A stretch of 64,000 nucleotides of DNA from a virus (lineage: Duplodnaviria > Caudoviricetes): positions 96,001 to 160,000 of IMG/VR virus record IMGVR_UViG_3300028888_000047; one strand, given 5' to 3'. The position numbers and the translations under genes are program-made. Positions 9,855 through 61,262 of this stretch are shown here, one piece after another; position 1 is the first letter of the stretch, and the number at the start of each line of letters is the position of its first letter. Below the pieces are notes generated by a model, which worked only from the letters and a program-made list of their open reading frames with translations, was not told where the DNA came from and made no database searches.

Positions 9855-10130
9855 TTACAAATTTTCAAGTTCTTCTTTTAGTTTTTTAAGTTCGTCATTT
9901 CCTTCAGCCATAAACAAAGCAAAAAGTTTTTGCCTAATTAAATCATTTCTTGAGGCGATTTCGAATGTTTTATAGCCTCCAGAAGGTAAAGCAACGCCAA
10001 ATGATATAAATGCTTTTTTATGGTACTTAACAGAATATTCGAAATTTTCTTCTAACTGCTTTATTGAACGTTCTGTTTCTCGTATTTTTCCCAATAAAAC
10101 ATAACCTTTTTCTATTTGTTCTTTTGTCAT
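9855..10130 (-). CDS. hypothetical protein
   Basis: 91 aa ORF. Confidence 0.7.
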   Translation of the reverse strand: MTKEQIEKGYVLLGKIRETERSIKQLEENFEYSVKYHKKAFISFGVALPSGGYKTFEIASRNDLIRQKLFALFMAEGNDELKKLKEELENL

Positions 10131-10133
10131 ATT

Positions 10134-10601
10134 CTAATCTATTTTTTCAGTTTCACTTAATTCATCGTAACGACCATACCATGTGTCGTTGTCAAATGAT
10201 TCTCTTATGTTATCATATATTTCACCTGTCACATCAAGTCTTCCTGATTGCCAACTTGTTTGAACGTCAATTGAGAACCATCCGCCATCTTTTGTTCTAA
10301 CAAACCAAATTAGATTTTTATCATATTTTGGTATATTACATGCTACAAAATAATCAGTTTCTTTTGCAAATAAATGGTCAGATATTTCAATCTCTTCTTG
10401 CCATATATCATATAATGGCCTTATTGTTCCTCTATGAAATGATTCAAAATACCTGTGTTTTGCTTCATTAGCGCCAATTACCTCATTTACTGTGGCAATA
10501 AAATGTCTACTTGGGCCGCATTTTCCATCATCAAAAAAATGGTATTTCTTTCCGACTTCAGGAACTGGTGTTTCAGTTGCAAATTTCTTTTTCTTTGACA
10601 T
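10134..10601 (-). CDS. conserved hypothetical phage protein
   Basis: FFDDGK..SRH..WFVRTKDGGWFS; TAG stop; promoter at ~10625. Confidence 0.75.
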   Translation of the reverse strand: MSKKKKFATETPVPEVGKKYHFFDDGKCGPSRHFIATVNEVIGANEAKHRYFESFHRGTIRPLYDIWQEEIEISDHLFAKETDYFVACNIPKYDKNLIWFVRTKDGGWFSIDVQTSWQSGRLDVTGEIYDNIRESFDNDTWYGRYDELSETEKID

Positions 10602-10756
10602 ATACTTAGATAATTTATTTAACCCAAAGATAAGAAAAAAAATTGATATAAACGAAAAAAAAGTGTTAAAAAACGTTAAATGGCAGAAGATTATTCATCT
10701 TCTGCCTTATTCCATATAGGTTAAAATGTGTATATATTCAATAAACTTTGGTTTTA

Positions 10757-16278: not shown

Positions 16279-16761
16279 TTAATCTATGCTTTTTATCAGT
16301 TCCATTATTTCTTCTGTAATATTATCAAAGAATTCAATGTCTTCCGAACAAAGACAATCATTTGCATATTCTTTAATACGATTAACCTTCTCAATTATTA
16401 ATTCTTTAGGTTTAATTGATTTTACAGCCTTTTCTGCGCTTTCTTTATAAATATAAAATTCGCCCAAATATGGCCTATAGCCACCAAGATAAAAGCCGCC
16501 TTTTAATCCACCATTTATAAGTTTACCATTTTCGTCAATGCCTATGAAATCAGTATAACGTTCAAGAAGTTTACCTGAATGGAATACACAGAATCTCCAA
16601 CAGCCACCATCAAGTTTCTTTTCTTGCCATATTTTTTTAGACACCTTATCGCCATCAGAATCTCCTAATTTTCGTTCAACTACTTTACCGTCTTTTATTT
16701 CATAAATAACACCTAGTTCATTAACTTTTTTCCAAAGTTTTTCTAAATAATTCTTTCTCAT
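16279..16761 (-). CDS. hypothetical protein
   Basis: 160 aa ORF. Confidence 0.7.
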   Translation of the reverse strand: MRKNYLEKLWKKVNELGVIYEIKDGKVVERKLGDSDGDKVSKKIWQEKKLDGGCWRFCVFHSGKLLERYTDFIGIDENGKLINGGLKGGFYLGGYRPYLGEFYIYKESAEKAVKSIKPKELIIEKVNRIKEYANDCLCSEDIEFFDNITEEIMELIKSID

Positions 16762-16767
16762 ATTAAT

Positions 16768-17214
16768 CTATGTTTTTAAATAATTTGTTTTATTCAATTT
16801 ATTTTCTAAGTTATGCATGTTTTCTGGCGCTTCCAAAGCAAGCCCTTTCTCAATTAGTCCACGATAATCAAAGTGATGAGCATTAAGCCAATCAATTGCC
16901 TCATATAATGTATTCCACTTATAGTCATCTTCCGAATGAAAATAATTTCTTGCTTTATAACCAAGTATTCCGTCTATTATTTTTTCTAATTCTTTTTGTT
17001 CTTCCTCAGTCATAGAAGACATTGGACGGAGATATGGTGTATAGTCAGATATTGACAACGACCAATTTAAATTAAGAGCTATCTTCACTTGATTATGACA
17101 AAATGGAGCTAACCCTTCTATTATTTCAGGTCCTCTATTAGTTCTAACCTTTACCCCATACGGCAACCTTGCAGAAAGGTCTTGGAATAATAGGAATTTT
17201 TCTTCTTGTGTCAT
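16768..17214 (-). CDS. conserved Bacteroidetes-phage hypothetical protein
   Basis: DLSARLPYGVK..PYLRPMSSMTEEE..WLNAHHFDYRGLIEKGLALEAPE; TAG stop. Confidence 0.8.
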   Translation of the reverse strand: MTQEEKFLLFQDLSARLPYGVKVRTNRGPEIIEGLAPFCHNQVKIALNLNWSLSISDYTPYLRPMSSMTEEEQKELEKIIDGILGYKARNYFHSEDDYKWNTLYEAIDWLNAHHFDYRGLIEKGLALEAPENMHNLENKLNKTNYLKT

Positions 17215-17363
17215 AACTTTACTATTACCTAAGTTGATACCACTTTACTAAGAAAATCACGAAAGCAACAAGTTCTAAGGCTGTTGCAGTAAGCCACACA
17301 TACGTCATACTCTTTATGCTACTAATTTAACCATTTTATTTTATCCGTATCTTATTTATGCTG

Positions 17364-25315: not shown

Positions 25316-25423
25316 AAAAAAAATTAATTTGTTTAATTATTAAAGCCTCACACGCTTTTTCAACGTGTGAGGGTAGTAGTTAACAAATATGCAGTACTGT
25401 TTAACTACAGAAAGATTTTGTTG

Positions 25424-25519
25424 AGTGTTCGGTCCGATTCGAACGGACGTGACGGATTTTTTATTTACCGTTCTAACAGATTTGCAGTCTGCTGGCTCAA
25501 CCAACTCACCCACGAACAC
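25424..25519 (-). tRNA. tRNA-Cys(GCA) with long variable arm
   Basis: GTGTTCG/CGAACAC acceptor, U73, GCAGA-CTGCAAA-TCTGT, T arm GTCCG-TTCGAAT-CGGAC, ~27-nt variable region. Confidence 0.85.
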
Positions 25520-51541: not shown

Positions 51542-51543
51542 CG

Positions 51544-51632
51544 TTGTGATGGCTGGATTTGAACCAGCGACAGGATTTCACATCCAAACTTCCTTATGAG
51601 AGAAGCGCAATAGACCACTCTGCCACATCACA
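51544..51632 (-). tRNA. tRNA-CAT (Met or Ile2) with long variable arm
   Basis: TGTGATG/CATCACA, CTTCT-CTCATAA-GGAAG, V-arm GGAT-GTGAA-ATCC, T arm GCTGG-TTCAAAT-CCAGC. Confidence 0.85.
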
Positions 51633-52315: not shown

Positions 52316-52502
52316 ATAGTATGTTTTTTTATATTAATTTAAAATTGGCTGACTAGTCTTTTCACAGCCAAGTAGCATATACATACTGCCCAAAGCATTT
52401 GCTTTGTTTGGTTCTTCCAAGCAGTTTCTGCCTTTATAGCCTCCCGTTCGCCTAAAGTCGTTATGCCATAGGTTTATCTACTTTGCAGTAGGGCTATATG
52501 AG

Positions 52503-52587
52503 CTCGCCGGGTGCGATTCGAACACACGGTGTCAAAAGACACGGTAGTTTTGGAGACTACTGGGTTAAACCACTCCCCCACCGGCGA
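52503..52587 (-). tRNA. tRNA-Trp(CCA) with long variable arm
   Basis: TCGCCGG/CCGGCGA, G73, GTAGT-CTCCAAA-ACTAC, V-arm GTGTC-TTTT-GACAC. Confidence 0.88.
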
Positions 52588-55695: not shown

Positions 55696-55801
55696 AATAT
55701 AGAAGTTAAAAAACGCATTAGTAAGTTTTTCTTAAACTACCGCTTCGCTCTTTTTCCGCTTATCGTCCTCCACCATGAATGGGGATTTACTAATGCATAT
55801 G

Positions 55802-55894
55802 CGGAGGATGAGAGGCTCGAACTCCCGCGCCGAAGGGTCTCTTCGACCTAACACGTTAGCAATGTGTCCCCGTCACCAACTTGGGTAATCCTCC
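55802..55894 (-). tRNA. tRNA-Ser(GCT)
   Basis: GGAGGAT/ATCCTCC, anticodon loop TTGCTAA, long V-arm. Confidence 0.9.
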
Positions 55895-57434: not shown

Positions 57435-57770
57435 CTATTCTAATATCTCAACAACTTTTCCAAATATATTATCCTTTGATATTGTACCATTTATACCACC
57501 ACGGTTATTGCCAATGAGATACCTATCACCACTTTTAACTGCTTGTATAAGGTGCAAGTAATAATGACCTTTAACTTTGCATAATACAATATTCTTTTTT
57601 TCAAGAACAGTTTCCTCATTAACGGGTTCACATATGACAGATTGACCGCTTTTTAAAATTGGAAGCATGCTGTTGCCATAGCCTGTTATTTTTCCATATA
57701 AACCATTTTTAAGATTTTCTGCACTTATTTTATTTTCTTTACCTTCAAAATCATATGAATATTCTGCCAT
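57435..57770 (-). CDS. S24/S26 peptidase-like protein
   Basis: GNSMLPILKSG, IVLCKV..YLHLI, IGNN. Confidence 0.7.
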   Translation of the reverse strand: MAEYSYDFEGKENKISAENLKNGLYGKITGYGNSMLPILKSGQSVICEPVNEETVLEKKNIVLCKVKGHYYLHLIQAVKSGDRYLIGNNRGGINGTISKDNIFGKVVEILE

Positions 57771-57777
57771 ATTAAAT

Positions 57778-58026
57778 TTACCCTTTTATCTTAATAAGCG
57801 TATCATCCTCGTTGGCCTTTCTAATCCACCTCATAAGTAGCAGAGCCTTTTCTGTTACATTGAATGAAGCAGATTCGCCAACATCAGATTTGTTACTCAC
57901 ATCTATCTCTAATTGGTATTCAGTATTATCAACTGCAATTATTTTGTATACAGCAATGCCTCCTGCTAAAACAGATTGCAATTGAGCAATACCTTTTACC
58001 AATGGTTTAATGTCCTGCACTATCAT
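57778..58026 (-). CDS. hypothetical phage protein
   Basis: DVG.ASF..EKA.LLMRWIRKA. Confidence 0.7.
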   Translation of the reverse strand: MIVQDIKPLVKGIAQLQSVLAGGIAVYKIIAVDNTEYQLEIDVSNKSDVGESASFNVTEKALLLMRWIRKANEDDTLIKIKG

Positions 58027-58831
58027 TTGTTTCTTTTATTAATGTATTAGCAATATCAATATAATCCTTATTTATTTCAATGCCTATGAAATTTCTATTT
58101 GTCTTAATGGCTGCGATTGCTGTTGTTCCACCTCCCATAAATGGGTCTAACACTATATCACCTTCATTTGACCAAGATAATATATGCCTCAGTGGAAGTT
58201 CAAGAGGAAATACAGCTGGATGCTTTATTTGTTTTTCATTTACCTCAAATAATCTCTTGTTTCGAGCAACTGCCATATCCCATATCTGGTAATCTATCAT
58301 TTTATTACTGACGTGGTAGTTTATCTCTTTTCTACCTTTCTCGCCTCCCATTATCTTAACTGTAGAGGCATATAGTTTACCAGCTGATTTACAAGGTATC
58401 ATTATAGGATTGAATGTCTTAGGCCTCTTACCTTTAACAAAACAAAACATAAACTCAACACATCTTGTATATCTGGGCTGCCTTACCTGTGGCATAGGAT
58501 TCTTCTTCCTCCAAAACATATAATCGTTAAGGCTAAAACCGCATACATCCATAAAGTAAATCGCTTGTCTCATTGATGTACCACTTCTGCTACCGTTTTC
58601 AGTCTTATCGTCAACGTTCCATATAAGAACACCACCATCTTTCAAAACCCTGTATAATTCTCTTGCTATTGCTTCGAATTTATCCTTGCTCCAACAATCT
58701 GTACATACTCCATTGTACGTGCGTAGATTGTCATATGGTGGTGACGTAACGATTAAATCAATTGAGTTATCATCAATTTGTTTCAGCAACTCCTCTGAAT
58801 CGCCACAATAAATATTGTTTAAATCTAACAT
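58007..58831 (-). CDS. N4/N6 DNA methyltransferase (beta class)
   Basis: TSPPY, HPAVFP, VLDPFMGGGTT, IGIEI. Confidence 0.93.
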   Translation of the reverse strand: MLDLNNIYCGDSEELLKQIDDNSIDLIVTSPPYDNLRTYNGVCTDCWSKDKFEAIARELYRVLKDGGVLIWNVDDKTENGSRSGTSMRQAIYFMDVCGFSLNDYMFWRKKNPMPQVRQPRYTRCVEFMFCFVKGKRPKTFNPIMIPCKSAGKLYASTVKIMGGEKGRKEINYHVSNKMIDYQIWDMAVARNKRLFEVNEKQIKHPAVFPLELPLRHILSWSNEGDIVLDPFMGGGTTAIAAIKTNRNFIGIEINKDYIDIANTLIKETNDSAGH

Positions 58832-58846
58832 AAAATTGTCTTTTTG

Positions 58847-58923
58847 TGACCCTAGTAGGATTCGAACCCACGATGAAAAATCGGTTTAGAAGCGACCGCA
58901 TTCGACCACTCTGCCATAGGGCC
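58847..58923 (-). tRNA. putative amber suppressor tRNA (anticodon CTA)
   Basis: GGCCCTA/TAGGGTC, A73; anticodon stem GTCG/CGAT pairs only in the register giving loop TT-CTA-AA (C31:C39 mismatch). Confidence 0.7.
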
Positions 58924-58950
58924 AATTGGCTGCATTTTTACAGCCATATA

Positions 58951-59241
58951 TTATTTTGAACCGACAAGTTTTAATTTCTTAAATAACCTATCATGTCCTA
59001 AAATAGCTAAAGATGTGGTTTTATTACCAAGGTCTGGTTCTTTAAATTCAGTATAACTTACCCCAAGAACAGATAACTTGTTTTTCCACTTGTTAACATC
59101 AGCACTCAAATAAATCAAGTACTCATTTTCCCATCCACTATTATGTTCAAGTAACCATTGTGCCACTGCGTGACCGCCTTGAACACAACCATATACCGCA
59201 TCAAGCGATTTATCAATCAATACGTATAACTTATTTTTCAT
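58951..59241 (-). CDS. PTH2-like peptidyl-tRNA hydrolase domain protein
   Basis: LYVLI..L..VQGGHAVA..F.EPDLGN.TTSLA..KLKL. Confidence 0.7.
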   Translation of the reverse strand: MKNKLYVLIDKSLDAVYGCVQGGHAVAQWLLEHNSGWENEYLIYLSADVNKWKNKLSVLGVSYTEFKEPDLGNKTTSLAILGHDRLFKKLKLVGSK

Positions 59242-59539
59242 CTGAATCAGCGTATAAGTTATAGTATTTAATAACCTGGTTCTTGAAATAAGGAATAGCC
59301 TCAGATTCAGTTAAATCTCCTCCGGTATAAACAATTCTACCGTGATAAAGACCTTTCCAACAACGTTTTCTTACTTCGTCCTCAAGATATTTATCACGTT
59401 CTTCTCCAACTATTCTGTGTTTGAAGAGATAATATGCAACATAGAAATAATGTGCATGATAAGGTTTTTTAACTTCTTCTTTAAACTTTAAATACTGTTC
59501 CTTTGTGGTTGCTTTATTTGTAAATTGTAATTTTTCCAT
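59231..59539 (-). CDS. hypothetical protein
   Basis: 102 aa ORF, YYLFKHR. Confidence 0.7.
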   Translation of the reverse strand: MEKLQFTNKATTKEQYLKFKEEVKKPYHAHYFYVAYYLFKHRIVGEERDKYLEDEVRKRCWKGLYHGRIVYTGGDLTESEAIPYFKNQVIKYYNLYADSDEK

Positions 59540-59561
59540 AATATAAAAAATTCTAGTATAA

Positions 59562-59744
59562 TTATTTTTTTTGGCTTGGTTTTCGCCAGTGTTTTAAGCA
59601 ATTTATGTAAACTAAACATGTTGATGCACTTTCAGCACCATCATACCCACTTGCCTATGGGCGTATTATACTAGAATTTATATTTGGACTACGTATCCTC
59701 TTCAGCTACCAATGTTGGTCAGTAATCTACCAAAAACTATTCAT
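59562..59744 (-). promoter_or_regulatory. leader ORF with three in-frame TAG codons overlapping a 12-bp stem
   Basis: MNSFW*ITDQHW*LKRIRSPNINSSIIRP*ASG..QKK-TAA; TTCTAGTATAAT/ATTATACTAGAA (59665-59676 / 59551-59562). Confidence 0.5.
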
Positions 59745-59769
59745 AACTAATAAATATTAAATTATTATG

Positions 59770-59843
59770 GGGGCAGTGAGGGAATCAAACCCACGTAAAC
59801 AAGTGCCACAAACTTGCGCCTAAGTCTCTCGGCCAACTGTCCC
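59770..59843 (-). tRNA. tRNA-His(GTG)
   Basis: G-1:C73, CAAGT-TTGTGGC-ACTTG. Confidence 0.88.
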
Positions 59844-59847
59844 ATAT

Positions 59848-59891
59848 TTAGGAAACATTTTTTTTCATATCTATTTTTGGCTGTTTCCTTG
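59848..59891 (-). ncRNA. ACAGCAA-clamp RNA E2 (short variant)
   Basis: AAGGAAAC-AGCC..GTTTCCTAA. Confidence 0.5.
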
Positions 59892-59899
59892 TATTTCAG

Positions 59900-59973
59900 C
59901 GGTCCGTACGGGTAACAATCCCGTCATTTCCGCCGTGACAGGGCGGCGTCTTCATCGTGCAGACCCACGGACC
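59900..59973 (-). tRNA. tRNA-Asp(GTC), atypical D/T loops
   Basis: GGTCCGT/ACGGACC G73, CCGCC-CTGTCAC-GGCGG, T loop ATTGTTA. Confidence 0.8.
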
Positions 59974-59980
59974 ATTTTTT

Positions 59981-60029
59981 TTAGGTAACCGTTTGTATAA
60001 CCTTACATTGTTTGCTGTTAGTTACCTTG
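59981..60029 (-). ncRNA. ACAGCAA-clamp RNA E3
   Basis: AAGGTAAC-TAACAGCAA..GTTACCTAA. Confidence 0.65.
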
Positions 60030-60032
60030 TTG

Positions 60033-60105
60033 AGCAGGTTTCTCGATTCGAACGAGTCTTTGATACAGGATTGTATCACGTGCTAAGCCATTACACCAGA
60101 ACCGC
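60033..60105 (-). tRNA. degenerate tRNA-Gly(TCC)-like
   Basis: Gly-like GCGG start, D and T arms intact, extended anticodon stem TGATACA-ATCC-TGTATCA, bulged acceptor. Confidence 0.55.
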
Positions 60106-60113
60106 AAAAAAAA

Positions 60114-60173
60114 TTAGGAAGCATTTTATATATTACCACAAACCATTAAAAAAACTTGCTGTTAGCTTCCTTG
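60114..60173 (-). ncRNA. ACAGCAA-clamp RNA E4
   Basis: AAGGAAGC-TAACAGCAA..GCTTCCTAA. Confidence 0.65.
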
Positions 60174-60365
60174 CTTTTTTATAAGCGTAGCAGGGTTATC
60201 ACTTTTCACCCAATAGCGACGATTCACACGTTAAACGTATCTGCATACACTAGGACACAGCATTTAGTCCTATCTGCGCACTGAGGCTTTAAGTCCACTC
60301 CGTTTTTGGGGCTTCCTACTAAACAGCAACAAGTGCTGCGTAGAGGAATGACACTTTCTGCTTTG

Positions 60366-60702: not shown

Positions 60703-60892
60703 AACTTGTATTTTTAATAAACTAACGCAAATATACAAAAAATATTTGTAAAAAAGAAATTTTTAATGAAAAAAAATCCTAAACTCTTCCCCATAGCTTT
60801 CGAACATAGTTAAACTAACTGACCGGCGACACAAAACTTGGAGGCCATCCCAATGAGGTCACGTTGCTTTCAGTGTTAGGGTTTTTTTATTG

Positions 60893-61262
60893 TGGACCTA
60901 GGCGGAGTCGAACCGCCGTCTTGCTCTGCGTTCCATAGAAATTTATACAAGCTTTTAGAGAATTTGGTGAGTGGTTTGCGCCACCCGTCCTCTCTGCCAC
61001 CCTATTTTGAGAAAATAGGGAAAACATGGGGGATGACCGGAATCATCAGTTCCACCATCTTAACGTACAACGTTAAGAAAAAATTACTAGGATGTTCTGT
61101 TCCTAAGAGCCTAGTCTCTCGGCCTATCGCTTACGCAGCCATTGCATAAGCATAAGCAGGAGAATCTACATTCTCGCCGTTTATGTTTTTTTTGCTATTT
61201 CTAGTGTATGCCCACTGCTTGATTTCTACCAAACTACAGCCAATCTATACCATTTTAGGCCC
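60893..61262 (-). ncRNA. ssrA: tmRNA
   Basis: GGGCCTA/TAGGTCC-A acceptor with G3:U70, T arm GGCGG-TTCGACT-CCGCC, ATAAAC-GGC resume, tag GENVDSPAYAYAMAA*. Confidence 0.92.

What the first reader, a model, noticed from the sequence alone, without database searches (positions are those of the whole stretch)
58847..59760. Candidate amber-readthrough-sensing operon: TAG-studded leader, PTH2-like gene and CUA tRNA
Seen: the ATG at 59744, just after an ATATTTAT motif, opens a 60-codon frame to TAA at 59562. It contains three in-frame TAGs, two as TGG-TAG (MNSFW*ITDQHW*LKRIRSPNINSSIIRP*..). The 5' arm of a perfect 12-bp stem lies just after the RIRSP codons. Its 3' arm, followed by T6, ends 11 nt before the ATG of the next gene (59539). 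Downstream are a 102-aa ORF, a PTH2-like peptidyl-tRNA hydrolase and a tRNA best folded with anticodon CUA. Inference: only ribosomes that read through UAG reach and melt the stem, possibly pausing at the RAPP-like RSP. This would couple expression of the cassette to the state of amber recoding, acting as a genetic-code switch sensor.
Basis: partly seen in the sequence, partly recalled or inferred. Interest (0 to 1): 0.85.

Follow-up and report, generated by a model that had tools for sequence, protein, structure and literature searches.

The report
Stop-codon-readthrough-sensing leader of phage operon
A 317-kb phage puts a tiny leader gene holding UAG stop codons in front of two small genes and its own UAG-reading tRNA, so the genes can probably be translated only when that tRNA overrides the stop. 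The same design, with the stop always matching the tRNA, recurs in dozens of phages including the Lak megaphages, and I found no published description.

Summary

- **Leader.** It starts at ATG 59744 on the minus strand. Its conserved core is M..F-W-TAG..W-TAG..I-R-S-P, kept in 15 distinct relatives.
- **Wider family.** A looser family of mini-ORFs lies upstream of the same cassette in 54-55 of 57 unique viral loci. Each has an early in-frame stop and ends in Pro-Pro-stop or an R-x-x-P motif. The cassette is a 4-helix protein "X", a Pth2-fold protein and a suppressor tRNA.
- **Stop matches tRNA.** The internal stop always matches the neighbouring tRNA, with no mismatch: TAG with CUA in 47 loci, TGA with UCA in 3, and TAA with UUA in Lak-A1, B1 and C1.
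- **Stem.** The window's stem is the local form of a helix that keeps its position but not its sequence. It pairs the last leader codons with the AUG of X. Cognate partners beat every one of 20000 permutations.

The likely mechanism is that only ribosomes carried past the stop by the suppressor reach the arrest-like motif and open the helix. X and the overlapping Pth2-like gene can then be translated.

Nothing here is experimental. The genome itself uses the standard code. The T-run after the stem is not conserved, so this is not a terminator. This scan found the same cassette earlier in at least eight other genomes. I found no publication describing it.

The parts
59769..59842 (-). tRNA-His(GUG), last tRNA before the leader; the leader lies in the 229-nt spacer that follows it
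   Evidence: ARAGORN; Rfam. The same tRNA-His precedes the leader in L001, L002, L004 and L005.
59685..59744 (-). Conserved core of the leader mini-ORF (codons 1-20: M-N-S-F-W-stop-I-T-D-Q-H-W-stop-L-K-R-I-R-S-P)
   Evidence: There are 15 distinct relatives. Synonymous swaps occur in the motif (CGT/AGA, GGT/GGC, CCT/CCG, GAT/GAC, CTG/CTA).
59727..59729 (-). First in-frame TAG (codon 6), preceded by TGG and followed by A
   Evidence: Invariant in all 15 distinct members of the clade.
59706..59708 (-). Second in-frame TAG (codon 13), preceded by TGG
   Evidence: Invariant in the clade.
59685..59696 (-). Arrest-like motif I-R-S-P (codons 17-20). The Pro codon 59687-59685 pairs with U-G-G of the X start.
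   Evidence: For motif classes RGSP, RASP, RAGP, RAPP and N-x-P-stop see PMC10987492.
59655..59657 (-). Third in-frame TAG (codon 30), preceded by R-P, 8 nt past the perfect 5' arm. Not conserved as such; some relatives have a third TAG elsewhere.
59562..59744 (-). Only the first 20-25 codons are conserved.
59665..59692 (-). 5' arm of the long-range helix (perfect core 59678-59665)
59563..59664 (-). Loop of about 100 nt with three or four small hairpins. It is the largest in the family, is absent from relatives, and is single-copy in the genome.
59527..59562 (-). 3' arm of the helix (perfect core 59562-59549). It runs through the T-run and over the ATG of X. U59538 and G59537 have unpaired probability 0.02-0.05.
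59231..59539 (-). Gene X: 102 aa, predicted 4-helix bundle. Invariant residues are A35, Y37, K40, H41 (motif Y-V-A-Y-Y-x-x-K-H), K62, F85 and V89. No known family.
58951..59241 (-). Pth2-fold protein of 96 aa. Its ATG overlaps the end of X by 11 nt. Invariant blocks are Y-G-C-V-Q-G-G-H and E-P-D-L.
58927..58946 (-). 6-bp hairpin directly 5' of the suppressor tRNA; possibly a processing signal
   Evidence: reported on the + strand; the repeat is palindromic in position.
58846..58923 (-). tRNA with anticodon CUA (amber suppressor type). It has G1-C72, A73, a 3-bp D stem and a C-C mismatch at the base of the anticodon stem. Amino-acid identity unknown.

Best explanation
This is a translational switch that reports whether the phage's own suppressor tRNA is working.

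The mRNA after tRNA-His starts with a mini-ORF whose 6th and 13th codons are UAG. Without suppression, RF1 ends translation there, 40-60 nt before a long helix. In that helix the codons of the I-R-S-P motif and those that follow are paired with the region up to and including the AUG of gene X, so X cannot start.

When charged tRNA(CUA) outcompetes RF1, ribosomes run on into the helix. They probably dwell at the arrest-like Pro motif, which is I-R-S-P here and possibly R-P-UAG 10 codons later. Relatives have Pro-Pro-stop or R-G/A-S-P instead. This keeps the 5' arm inside the ribosome and frees the X start. X and the Pth2-like gene, whose start overlaps the X stop, are then translated.

What is shown by comparison:
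- the leader is a conserved ORF;
- its stop matches the tRNA;
- the helix and its register are conserved.

What is inferred:
- stalling at the motif;
- the direction of the switch (on with suppression);
- what X and the Pth2-like protein then do. My preferred guess is that they recycle or trim tRNA esters so that suppression is tolerated or held at a set level.
For: **Leader family.**
- In 57 unique IMG/VR loci that hold the Pth2-like gene, 54 have a leader by regular expression. L010 adds a variant. The first internal stop is at codon 2-9.
- C-terminal motifs are PP-stop 29, IRGP 10, IRSP 4, VRGT 3, RASP 3, K/R-GPD 3, RGSP 1 and RGFP 1.
- Amber mini-ORFs ending PP-stop occur in 29 of 57 target zones. 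There is 1 in all other sequence of these loci on both strands, and 0 in the 317-kb genome.
- Pro-Pro is spelled with 8 codon pairs. The terminal stop is TAA in 27 of 28 and never TAG. The base after the internal TAG is a purine in 28 of 28.

**Stop matches anticodon.**
- TAG with CUA in 47 loci and TGA with UCA in 3 (L017, L020, L022).
- TAA with UUA in Prevotella phages Lak-A1, Lak-B1 and Lak-C1.
- No mismatch was found.

**Helix.**
- Duplex energy between the leader end and the X start region averages -15.2 kcal/mol for cognate pairs and -8.4 for non-cognate pairs. The cognate sum is -532, against -302 +/- 17 for permuted partners, and 0 of 20000 permutations reach it.
- In 35 of 35 loci, nt -6..+4 around the X AUG pair within -16 to +13 nt of the first base of the last motif codon (mostly 0 to +12), usually UGG with the last Pro codon.
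- Five pairs show compensatory changes in the IRGPD subgroup.
- Loci where the leader is fused in frame to X keep the helix.
- In the window, the U and G of the X AUG have unpaired probability 0.02-0.05.

**Precedents.** Arrest motifs RAGP, RAPP, RGSP and RASP, and stalling at N-S/A-P-stop, are experimentally established in other uORFs (PMC10987492). Poly-Pro C-termini slow termination (PMC6412442).

**Cassette linkage.** The Pth2-like gene is followed by a suppressor tRNA in nearly all loci. X stop and Pth2 start overlap.
Against: - There is no expression, ribosome-profiling or toeprint evidence.
- Within the window's clade, the spacer between the two TAGs shows no third-position bias (variable sites 6, 7 and 7 by codon position). 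The blocks around both TAGs are invariant at the nucleotide level, so an RNA- or DNA-level constraint acts there as well.
- The last Pro codon is also the complement of the UGG of the X start, so part of its conservation could come from pairing rather than from the peptide.
- The three TGA loci, and likewise the three Lak loci, are probably one clade each. The covariation therefore rests on few independent events.
- The genome ends 29 ORFs in TAG without special back-up stops, so strong suppression should be costly.
- The functions of X and of the Pth2-like protein are unknown, so the benefit of the circuit is conjecture.
- Four loci with a TAG leader show no suppressor tRNA in the fetched flank.
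Confidence: 0.6

Rival explanations
1. Transcription attenuation. The stem plus T-run is an intrinsic terminator. Readthrough of the TAGs lets ribosomes disrupt it, so transcription continues into X, the Pth2-like gene and the suppressor tRNA. A Rho-dependent version is also possible: early termination of the leader leaves naked RNA and causes polarity.
For: In the window the 3' arm is followed by six T. The tRNA lies downstream on the same strand with no clear promoter in between. A synthetic UAG-in-leader switch works this way through an unmasked rut site (PMC6412442).
Against: The T-run is absent in the relatives. The stem encloses a loop of about 100 nt and was not called by the terminator scan. 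In all 35 loci the 3' arm ends on or at the X start codon, in a fixed register with the last motif codon. A terminator does not require that. Rho polarity can be neither tested nor excluded, and could act in addition.
Confidence: 0.12
2. There is no sensor. The TAGs are ordinary recoded sense codons in an N-terminal extension of protein X, left over from or on the way to a TAG-recoded genome. The separate mini-ORF forms are decayed versions.
For: In L001/L049, L005, L009, L010, L013, L014 and L021 the leader runs in frame into X, giving products of about 150-156 aa. Some relatives are recoded. The Pth2-like gene holds an in-frame TAG in L058 and L067, and an in-frame TGA at an invariant Trp in L048, L050, L056 and L059.
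Against: The stop is never replaced by a sense codon in 54-55 of 57 loci, although a single transition would do it. Its type follows the neighbouring tRNA for three different stop codons. Most loci have a separate mini-ORF of 9-30 codons ending PP-TAA. This genome has no other convincing in-frame TAG: only 4 ORF pairs are joined by TAG, and the two tested had no Pfam hit. The fused forms keep the helix.
Confidence: 0.1
3. The leader works the other way round, or as a minigene. The early stop in a 3-8-codon ORF provokes peptidyl-tRNA drop-off, as in lambda bar minigenes. It thus creates or measures the need for peptidyl-tRNA hydrolase. Alternatively, a ribosome stalled at the motif represses X rather than activating it.
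For: The stop comes very early (codon 2-9), and a hydrolase-fold gene is always in the operon. The codon before TAG is often a rare one, CGG in 14 of 28.
Against: This does not explain the conserved in-frame Pro motif downstream of the stop. It does not explain why the stop must match the tRNA, or the helix register. The leader stop lies 48-80 nt from the X AUG in most loci, too far for a stalled ribosome to occlude it.
Confidence: 0.1
4. The conserved block is a DNA or RNA signal that is not translated, such as an operator with two TTGGTAG repeats 21 bp apart, a promoter, or a tRNA-binding RNA. The open frame would then be chance.
For: The sequence around both TAGs is invariant at the nucleotide level, and the repeat spacing equals two helical turns. 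UGGU could pair with an A-C-C-A 3' end and UAG with the anticodon, as in T-box leaders (my inference).
Against: Outside the window's clade the nucleotide sequence is unrelated. Yet the ORF grammar persists: ATG, early cognate stop, in-frame Pro motif and TAA, with many Pro codon spellings. There is no Rfam match, T-box included, down to E = 10. The Arg codon CGT is exchanged for AGA in L005.
Confidence: 0.04

Closest known systems
Arrest-peptide uORFs that unmask a downstream start (SecM-secA, MifM-yidC2, ApdA/ApdP RAPP peptides, the RQH family; PMC10987492, PMC10951233, PMC10951299)
   Same: A short uORF lies directly upstream of the regulated gene. It has a C-terminal R-A/G-x-P or Pro-Pro motif, and some known ones also stall with the stop codon in the A site. 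An mRNA helix hides the downstream initiation region, and its 5' arm lies at the stall site.
   Different: The known examples sense protein export or membrane insertion through a pulling force on the nascent chain, and regulate Sec/YidC genes. Here the leader has no signal or membrane segment. The sensed event is decoding of an in-frame stop codon upstream of the motif. The output is a phage Pth2-like operon. Stalling itself is untested.
Leader-peptide attenuators that sense charged tRNA (trp, his, pheA leaders) and TnaC
   Same: A mini-ORF carries one to three copies of the codon whose decoding is being measured. Ribosome position decides between alternative RNA states.
   Different: Those sense sense-codon tRNAs or free Trp, and control transcription terminators or Rho. 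Here the codon is a stop, the competitor is a release factor, and the helix covers a start codon. The U-run is not conserved.
prfB (RF2) autoregulation through an in-frame UGA, and PepNL of E. coli (PMC11890864)
   Same: A natural in-frame stop codon acts as a sensor of the balance between termination and its alternative. In PepNL, read-through by Trp-tRNA modulates an arrest at the stop codon.
   Different: prfB uses a +1 frameshift and senses RF2. PepNL uses near-cognate read-through by a normal tRNA to cancel an arrest. Here a dedicated suppressor tRNA encoded in the same cassette is needed to reach the arrest motif.
Synthetic amber-codon leader switches of genetic code expansion (review PMC6412442, section 6)
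   Same: UAG is placed in a leader peptide so that an orthogonal tRNA(CUA) controls the downstream genes.
   Different: Those are engineered from tna or trp leaders and act on transcription. This one is natural, is conserved across many phage lineages, and is predicted to act on translation initiation.
Stop-codon-recoded phages and their code-change modules (bioRxiv 10.1101/2021.08.26.457843; theta ribozymes, PMC10879173)
   Same: A suppressor tRNA encoded by a large gut or rumen phage. Relatives include the TAG-recoded Lak megaphages. The shared idea is that suppression times gene expression.
   Different: Those papers describe suppressor tRNAs, synthetases, release factors and ribozymes. I found no mention in them of a leader, a hydrolase or gene X. 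This genome is not recoded.
Archaeal/eukaryotic-type peptidyl-tRNA hydrolase Pth2 (PDB 3erj, 2zv3, 1wn2, 1xty, 1q7s)
   Same: The predicted fold is the same (TM 0.65-0.77, probability 1.0).
   Different: There is no Pfam or PDB sequence-level match. At 96 aa it is shorter, and it has its own invariant blocks. Activity and substrate are unknown.

Membership tests
RAPP/SecM-like regulatory arrest peptides | Short uORF immediately upstream of the regulated gene, conserved only near its C-terminus | tested here: met
   There are 54-55 of 57 loci with such a uORF. N-terminal parts are unrelated between groups, and the Pro motif is always present.
RAPP/SecM-like regulatory arrest peptides | C-terminal motif of the R-A/G-P/S-P or Pro-Pro(-stop) type | tested here: met
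   PP-stop 29, IRGP 10, IRSP 4, RASP 3, RGSP 1 and others. For the motif list see PMC10987492. The window's motif is I-R-S-P.
RAPP/SecM-like regulatory arrest peptides | mRNA helix that sequesters the downstream initiation region and is opened by the stalled ribosome | tested here: met
   Predicted structures only. See (permutation test 0 of 20000; register kept in 35 of 35).
RAPP/SecM-like regulatory arrest peptides | Demonstrated elongation or termination arrest (toeprint, peptidyl-tRNA accumulation) | not testable with these tools
RAPP/SecM-like regulatory arrest peptides | Arrest relieved by export or insertion of the nascent chain (signal or membrane segment in the uORF; Sec/YidC gene downstream) | tested here: not met
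   The leaders are 9-30 residues with no hydrophobic segment. The downstream genes are X and a Pth2-fold protein.
Classical transcription-attenuation leaders | Terminator hairpin with U-run that alternates with an antiterminator | tested here: not met
   The U-run is present only in the window. The scan called no terminator on the minus strand, and relatives lack the U-run.
Pth2 peptidyl-tRNA hydrolase (PF01981) | Pth2 alpha/beta fold | tested here: met
   Model pLDDT 86.6. The 15 best Foldseek hits are Pth2 proteins or Pth2-like structural-genomics entries.
Pth2 peptidyl-tRNA hydrolase (PF01981) | Match to the family profile at the curated threshold | tested here: not met
   No Pfam hit at E up to 1. 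PHROG 3668 'hydrolase' scored 3.6e-6. No PDB sequence hit with a profile.
Pth2 peptidyl-tRNA hydrolase (PF01981) | Catalytic residues and hydrolysis of peptidyl-tRNA | not tested
   The invariant blocks Y-G-C-V-Q-G-G-H and E-P-D-L..T lie where I recall the Pth2 helix-1 and Asp/Thr motifs to be. No residue-level superposition was made.
Stop-codon-recoded (code 15) phage | Many genes with in-frame TAG that align to sense codons in relatives | tested here: not met
   Only 4 ORF pairs over 200 codons are joined by TAG in 317 kb, against 14 for TGA as a control. TAG ends 29 of about 403 ORFs.
Stop-codon-recoded (code 15) phage | Phage-encoded suppressor tRNA | tested here: met
T-box leader | Match to the T-box covariance model, with specifier loop and antiterminator | tested here: not met
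   No Rfam hit down to E = 10 in 58500-60200.

The most novel reading that the evidence does not exclude
The cassette is a self-contained, natural sensor of the genetic-code state. An arrest-peptide leader measures how well the infected cell reads whichever stop codon the phage's suppressor decodes (UAG, UGA or UAA). Only then does it release a conserved two-protein module, X plus the Pth2-like enzyme, which acts back on suppression by tuning charged suppressor tRNA or release-factor competition. In recoded relatives such as the Lak megaphages, this would be the checkpoint that commits the infection to the late, recoded gene set.
Probability: 0.3. Interest if true: 0.95.

Novelty: new variant of a known kind. 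Interest (0 to 1): 0.85.

Why it matters
Phage suppressor tRNAs are thought to drive a switch of genetic code during infection. How the switch is sensed or timed is an open question (stated in PMC10879173 and in bioRxiv 10.1101/2021.08.26.457843).

- **A testable element.** This leader is short and makes the question experimentally tractable. Its input is stop-codon readthrough. Its logic follows the well-understood arrest-peptide switches. It exists in variants for UAG, UGA and UAA.
- **Orphan suppressor tRNAs.** It gives the "orphan" suppressor tRNAs of standard-code phages a concrete target.
- **Two new protein families linked to suppression.** It ties a Pth2-fold protein and a new 4-helix protein family to suppression.
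- **Published genomes.** The cassette is present in the published Lak megaphage genomes, so the claim can be checked by anyone.
- **Synthetic biology.** It is a natural counterpart of engineered amber-codon switches, and a source of compact parts that respond to orthogonal tRNAs.

Tried and rejected
- **Rfam.** A scan of 58500-60200 down to E = 10 found only the two tRNAs. No T-box, riboswitch or HDV-like ribozyme was found.
- **INPHARED phages.** blastn of the locus and tblastn of X found nothing. tblastn of the Pth2-like protein found the Lak phages. It also found two Stenotrophomonas jumbo phages in which the domain is the C-terminal part of a 261-aa protein without the cassette.
- **Loose DNA pattern.** A 14-base pattern in viral contigs returned mostly chance hits and was dropped.
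- **Stem as a mobile element.** The arms and the loop are single-copy in the genome.
- **Upstream AT-rich block as a promoter.** There is no enrichment upstream of genes. The sigma-70 scan was at shuffle level.
- **Third-position bias between the TAGs.** None was found.
- **Hairpin around the two TAGs.** It is weak and shows no covariation.
- **Gene X.** No Pfam, PHROG or PDB sequence match. No fold match: Foldseek best E 1.6, VIA-align best Z 4.8. The ESM Atlas returned only viral hypotheticals. Only 67 clusters match among 1.84 billion representatives.
- **Complex prediction of X with the Pth2-like protein.** No verdict.
- **Amino-acid identity of tRNA(CUA).** The nearest phage tRNAs are only 63-68% alike (Val, Ile, Ala), so this is undecided.
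- **Two TAG-joined ORF pairs in the window, read with TAG=Q.** No Pfam family.
- **Back-up stops after TAG-ending genes.** They are no different from those after other genes.
- **GTDB genome scan.** Only two metagenome-assembled contigs turned up, both carrying the full cassette. They gave no host information.
Full report
**Setting.** The window is bases 96001-160000 of a 317,464-bp IMG/VR virus record, rated 95% complete by CheckV.
- The genome has 32% G+C. Nearly all genes lie on the minus strand. It carries 36 tRNA genes and a tmRNA.
- It uses the standard code. Among about 403 long ORFs the stops are TAA 298, TGA 76 and TAG 29. Only four ORF pairs longer than 200 codons are bridged by a TAG, against fourteen for TGA as a control.

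**Observation.**
- ATG 59744 opens a 60-codon minus-strand frame with TAGs at codons 6, 13 and 30. The first two follow TGG.
- The pattern TGGTAG-N15-TGGTAG is unique in the genome and is not expected by chance.
- The inverted repeat is 14 bp perfect. In the predicted fold it grows to about 28 pairs, 59692-59665 with 59527-59562. The 5' side starts inside the I-R-S-P codons and the 3' side covers the ATG of the next gene. The U and G of that ATG pair with the Pro codon 59687-59685, and their unpaired probability is 0.02-0.05.
- Downstream lie a 102-aa ORF (X) and a 96-aa ORF that overlaps the end of X by 11 nt. After a further 27 nt comes a tRNA with anticodon CUA.
- The 96-aa protein has no Pfam hit. 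A confident model (pLDDT 86.6) matches solved Pth2 enzymes at TM 0.65-0.77.
- X is a confident 4-helix bundle (pLDDT 91) with no relative in PDB, Pfam or PHROGs.

**Relatives of the window's clade.**
- Searching IMG/VR with X and with the Pth2-like protein gave 70 loci, mostly from contigs of 90-412 kb.
- In 15 distinct sequences of the window's clade, the leader block S-F-W-TAG, five variable codons, W-TAG-L-K, then I/V-R-G/S-P/T is kept, while the flanks diverge.
- Inside the motif the changes are synonymous or conservative. They include CGT to AGA for Arg.
- The five codons between the TAGs show no third-position bias, and the bases around both TAGs are invariant. An extra nucleotide-level constraint, still unexplained, therefore acts there.

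**The wider leader family.** The decisive step was to look at the more distant loci.
- Almost all of them (54 of 57 unique loci by regular expression, plus L010) carry a mini-ORF of 9-30 codons at the same place. It has unrelated sequence but the same grammar.
- That grammar is Met, one to eight often basic residues, an in-frame stop, three to twenty residues, and then either Pro-Pro-stop (29 loci, 16 distinct peptides) or an R-x-x-P motif (IRGP, IRSP, RASP, RGSP and others).
- Such amber mini-ORFs are about a thousand times denser in this 350-nt zone than elsewhere in the same loci (29 against 1). None occurs in the window's genome outside the finding.
- Pro-Pro is written with eight different codon pairs. 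The terminal stop is TAA in 27 of 28 and never TAG. The base after the internal TAG is always a purine.
- These features point to a translated peptide.

**The internal stop follows the tRNA.**
- Where the Pth2-like gene is followed by tRNA(CUA), the leader holds TAG (47 unique loci, the window, and two MAG contigs).
- In the three loci where it is followed by tRNA(UCA), the leader holds TGA.
- In the published Prevotella megaphages Lak-A1, Lak-B1 and Lak-C1, a tRNA with anticodon UUA lies about 140 nt upstream. Their leader holds TAA after Q-H/F-W and is followed by S-R-G-S-P or D-R-G-P.
- No mismatched pair was seen.
- The TGA loci and the Lak loci are probably one lineage each, so this counts as two or three independent events, not fifty.

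**The stem is conserved in position, not in sequence.**
- In every locus the predicted fold joins the last codons of the leader to the start region of X.
- Duplex energies of cognate leader-end and X-start pairs average -15.2 kcal/mol, against -8.4 for non-cognate pairs. The cognate sum lies 14 standard deviations beyond permuted partners, and 0 of 20000 permutations reach it.
- In 35 of 35 curated loci, the bases from -6 to +4 around the X AUG pair within -16 to +13 nt of the first base of the last motif codon (mostly 0 to +12). Typically UGG pairs with the final Pro codon.
- The IRGPD subgroup shows five pairs with compensatory changes.
- Loci in which the leader happens to run in frame into X keep the same helix.
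- The window's loop is simply the longest, at about 100 nt, and is single-copy.
- The T-run after the 3' arm is peculiar to the window. The helix is therefore not a conserved terminator.

**Mechanism.** The simplest reading is a translational switch of the SecM/MifM/ErmCL type with a new input.
- RF1 (or RF2) ends the leader at the early stop unless the phage suppressor decodes it.
- Only then does a ribosome reach the Pro motif. Motifs of this kind (RAGP, RAPP, RGSP, RASP, and Asn-Ser/Ala-Pro-stop) have been shown to stall ribosomes in other uORFs (PMC10987492). Pro-rich C-termini slow termination (PMC6412442).
- A ribosome held there occupies the 5' arm and exposes the AUG of X. The Pth2-like gene follows by coupling.
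- The steps shown by comparison are the ORF, the stop-tRNA match and the helix register.
- Stalling, the direction of the switch and its purpose are inferred.
- Because the tRNA lies downstream on the same strand, Rho polarity could add a transcriptional layer. This cannot be tested here.
- My guess for the purpose is that X and the hydrolase-fold protein deal with tRNA esters produced under suppression, or set its level. A tmRNA gene sits in the same array. There is no evidence for this guess. A complex prediction for the two proteins gave no verdict.

**Known or new.**
- I found no description of this leader, of X, or of the Pth2 link. I looked in full-text searches, in the key paper on recoded phages, and in the paper on ribozymes next to phage suppressor tRNAs.
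- The nearest natural precedents are arrest-peptide uORFs, prfB, and PepNL, where read-through by Trp-tRNA modulates an arrest.
- The nearest artificial one is the amber-codon leader switch of genetic code expansion.
- This scan has met the same cassette at least eight times in other genomes. One of those reports was later priced at 85/100 for the observation and 20/100 for the bold self-contained-switch reading. I take that as a caution on function, not on anatomy.

Noticed in passing
window 60892-61262 (-): A phage-encoded tmRNA (tag peptide of 15 residues starting G-E-N-V and ending A-M-A-A) sits in the same tRNA array, 1.1 kb upstream of the leader. Relatives L001, L002 and L004 have it too. 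A ribosome-rescue RNA next to a suppressor cassette may not be a coincidence.
   Followed up: partly
window 58927-58946 (-): A 6-bp hairpin with an 8-nt loop lies directly 5' of tRNA(CUA), between the Pth2-like stop and the tRNA. It may be a processing or pausing signal.
   Followed up: no
L190 733-805, L191 844-916, L193 734-806 (Lak-A1, Lak-B1, Lak-C1): The published Lak megaphages are known for TAG recoding. They carry a tRNA with anticodon UUA (ochre type) next to this cassette, and their leader holds TAA. I did not check whether they also have in-frame TAA in other genes.
   Followed up: partly
L048, L050, L056, L059 (Pth2-like gene, codon about 35): In these loci the Pth2-like gene has an in-frame TGA at the position of an invariant Trp. 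Three of the four also have a tRNA(UCA) about 600 nt upstream. These phages seem to read TGA as Trp, yet they keep a TAG leader and tRNA(CUA). L058 and L067 have an in-frame TAG inside the Pth2-like gene.
   Followed up: partly
alignment A4 (L003, L009-L023 spacer between leader and X): The loop of the helix holds a conserved motif (A-U-G-G-G-A-A-A, a few bases, then U-A-G-U-G-A) in the IRGPD subgroup and, weaker, in L006 and L007. It could be a protein-binding or standby site.
   Followed up: no
window 59733-59738 and 59700-59712 (-): The bases around both TAGs (A-G-U-U-U-U-U-G-G-U-A-G and U-G-G-U-A-G-C-U-G-A-A) are invariant in 15 distinct relatives, third codon positions included. The two TTGGTAG copies are 21 nt apart. 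Coding does not explain this.
   Followed up: partly
window 25423-25519, 51543-51632, 52502-52587, 55801-55894 (-): Several tRNA calls are unusually long (Cys 97 nt, Met 90, Trp 86, Ser-GCU 94), and tRNA-Tyr is only 70 nt. They may hold introns or extra arms.
   Followed up: no
window 9858-10694 and 16282-17244 (-); genome 45848-46786 and 239394-240887: Four ORF pairs are joined in frame by a single TAG. The two in the window have no Pfam family when read through. I do not know whether any is a real readthrough product.
   Followed up: partly
window 58007-58831 and 57435-57770 (-): Directly after the tRNA come an N6/N4 DNA methyltransferase (PF01555, 1e-46) and a small S24 peptidase-like protein (3e-5).
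   Followed up: no
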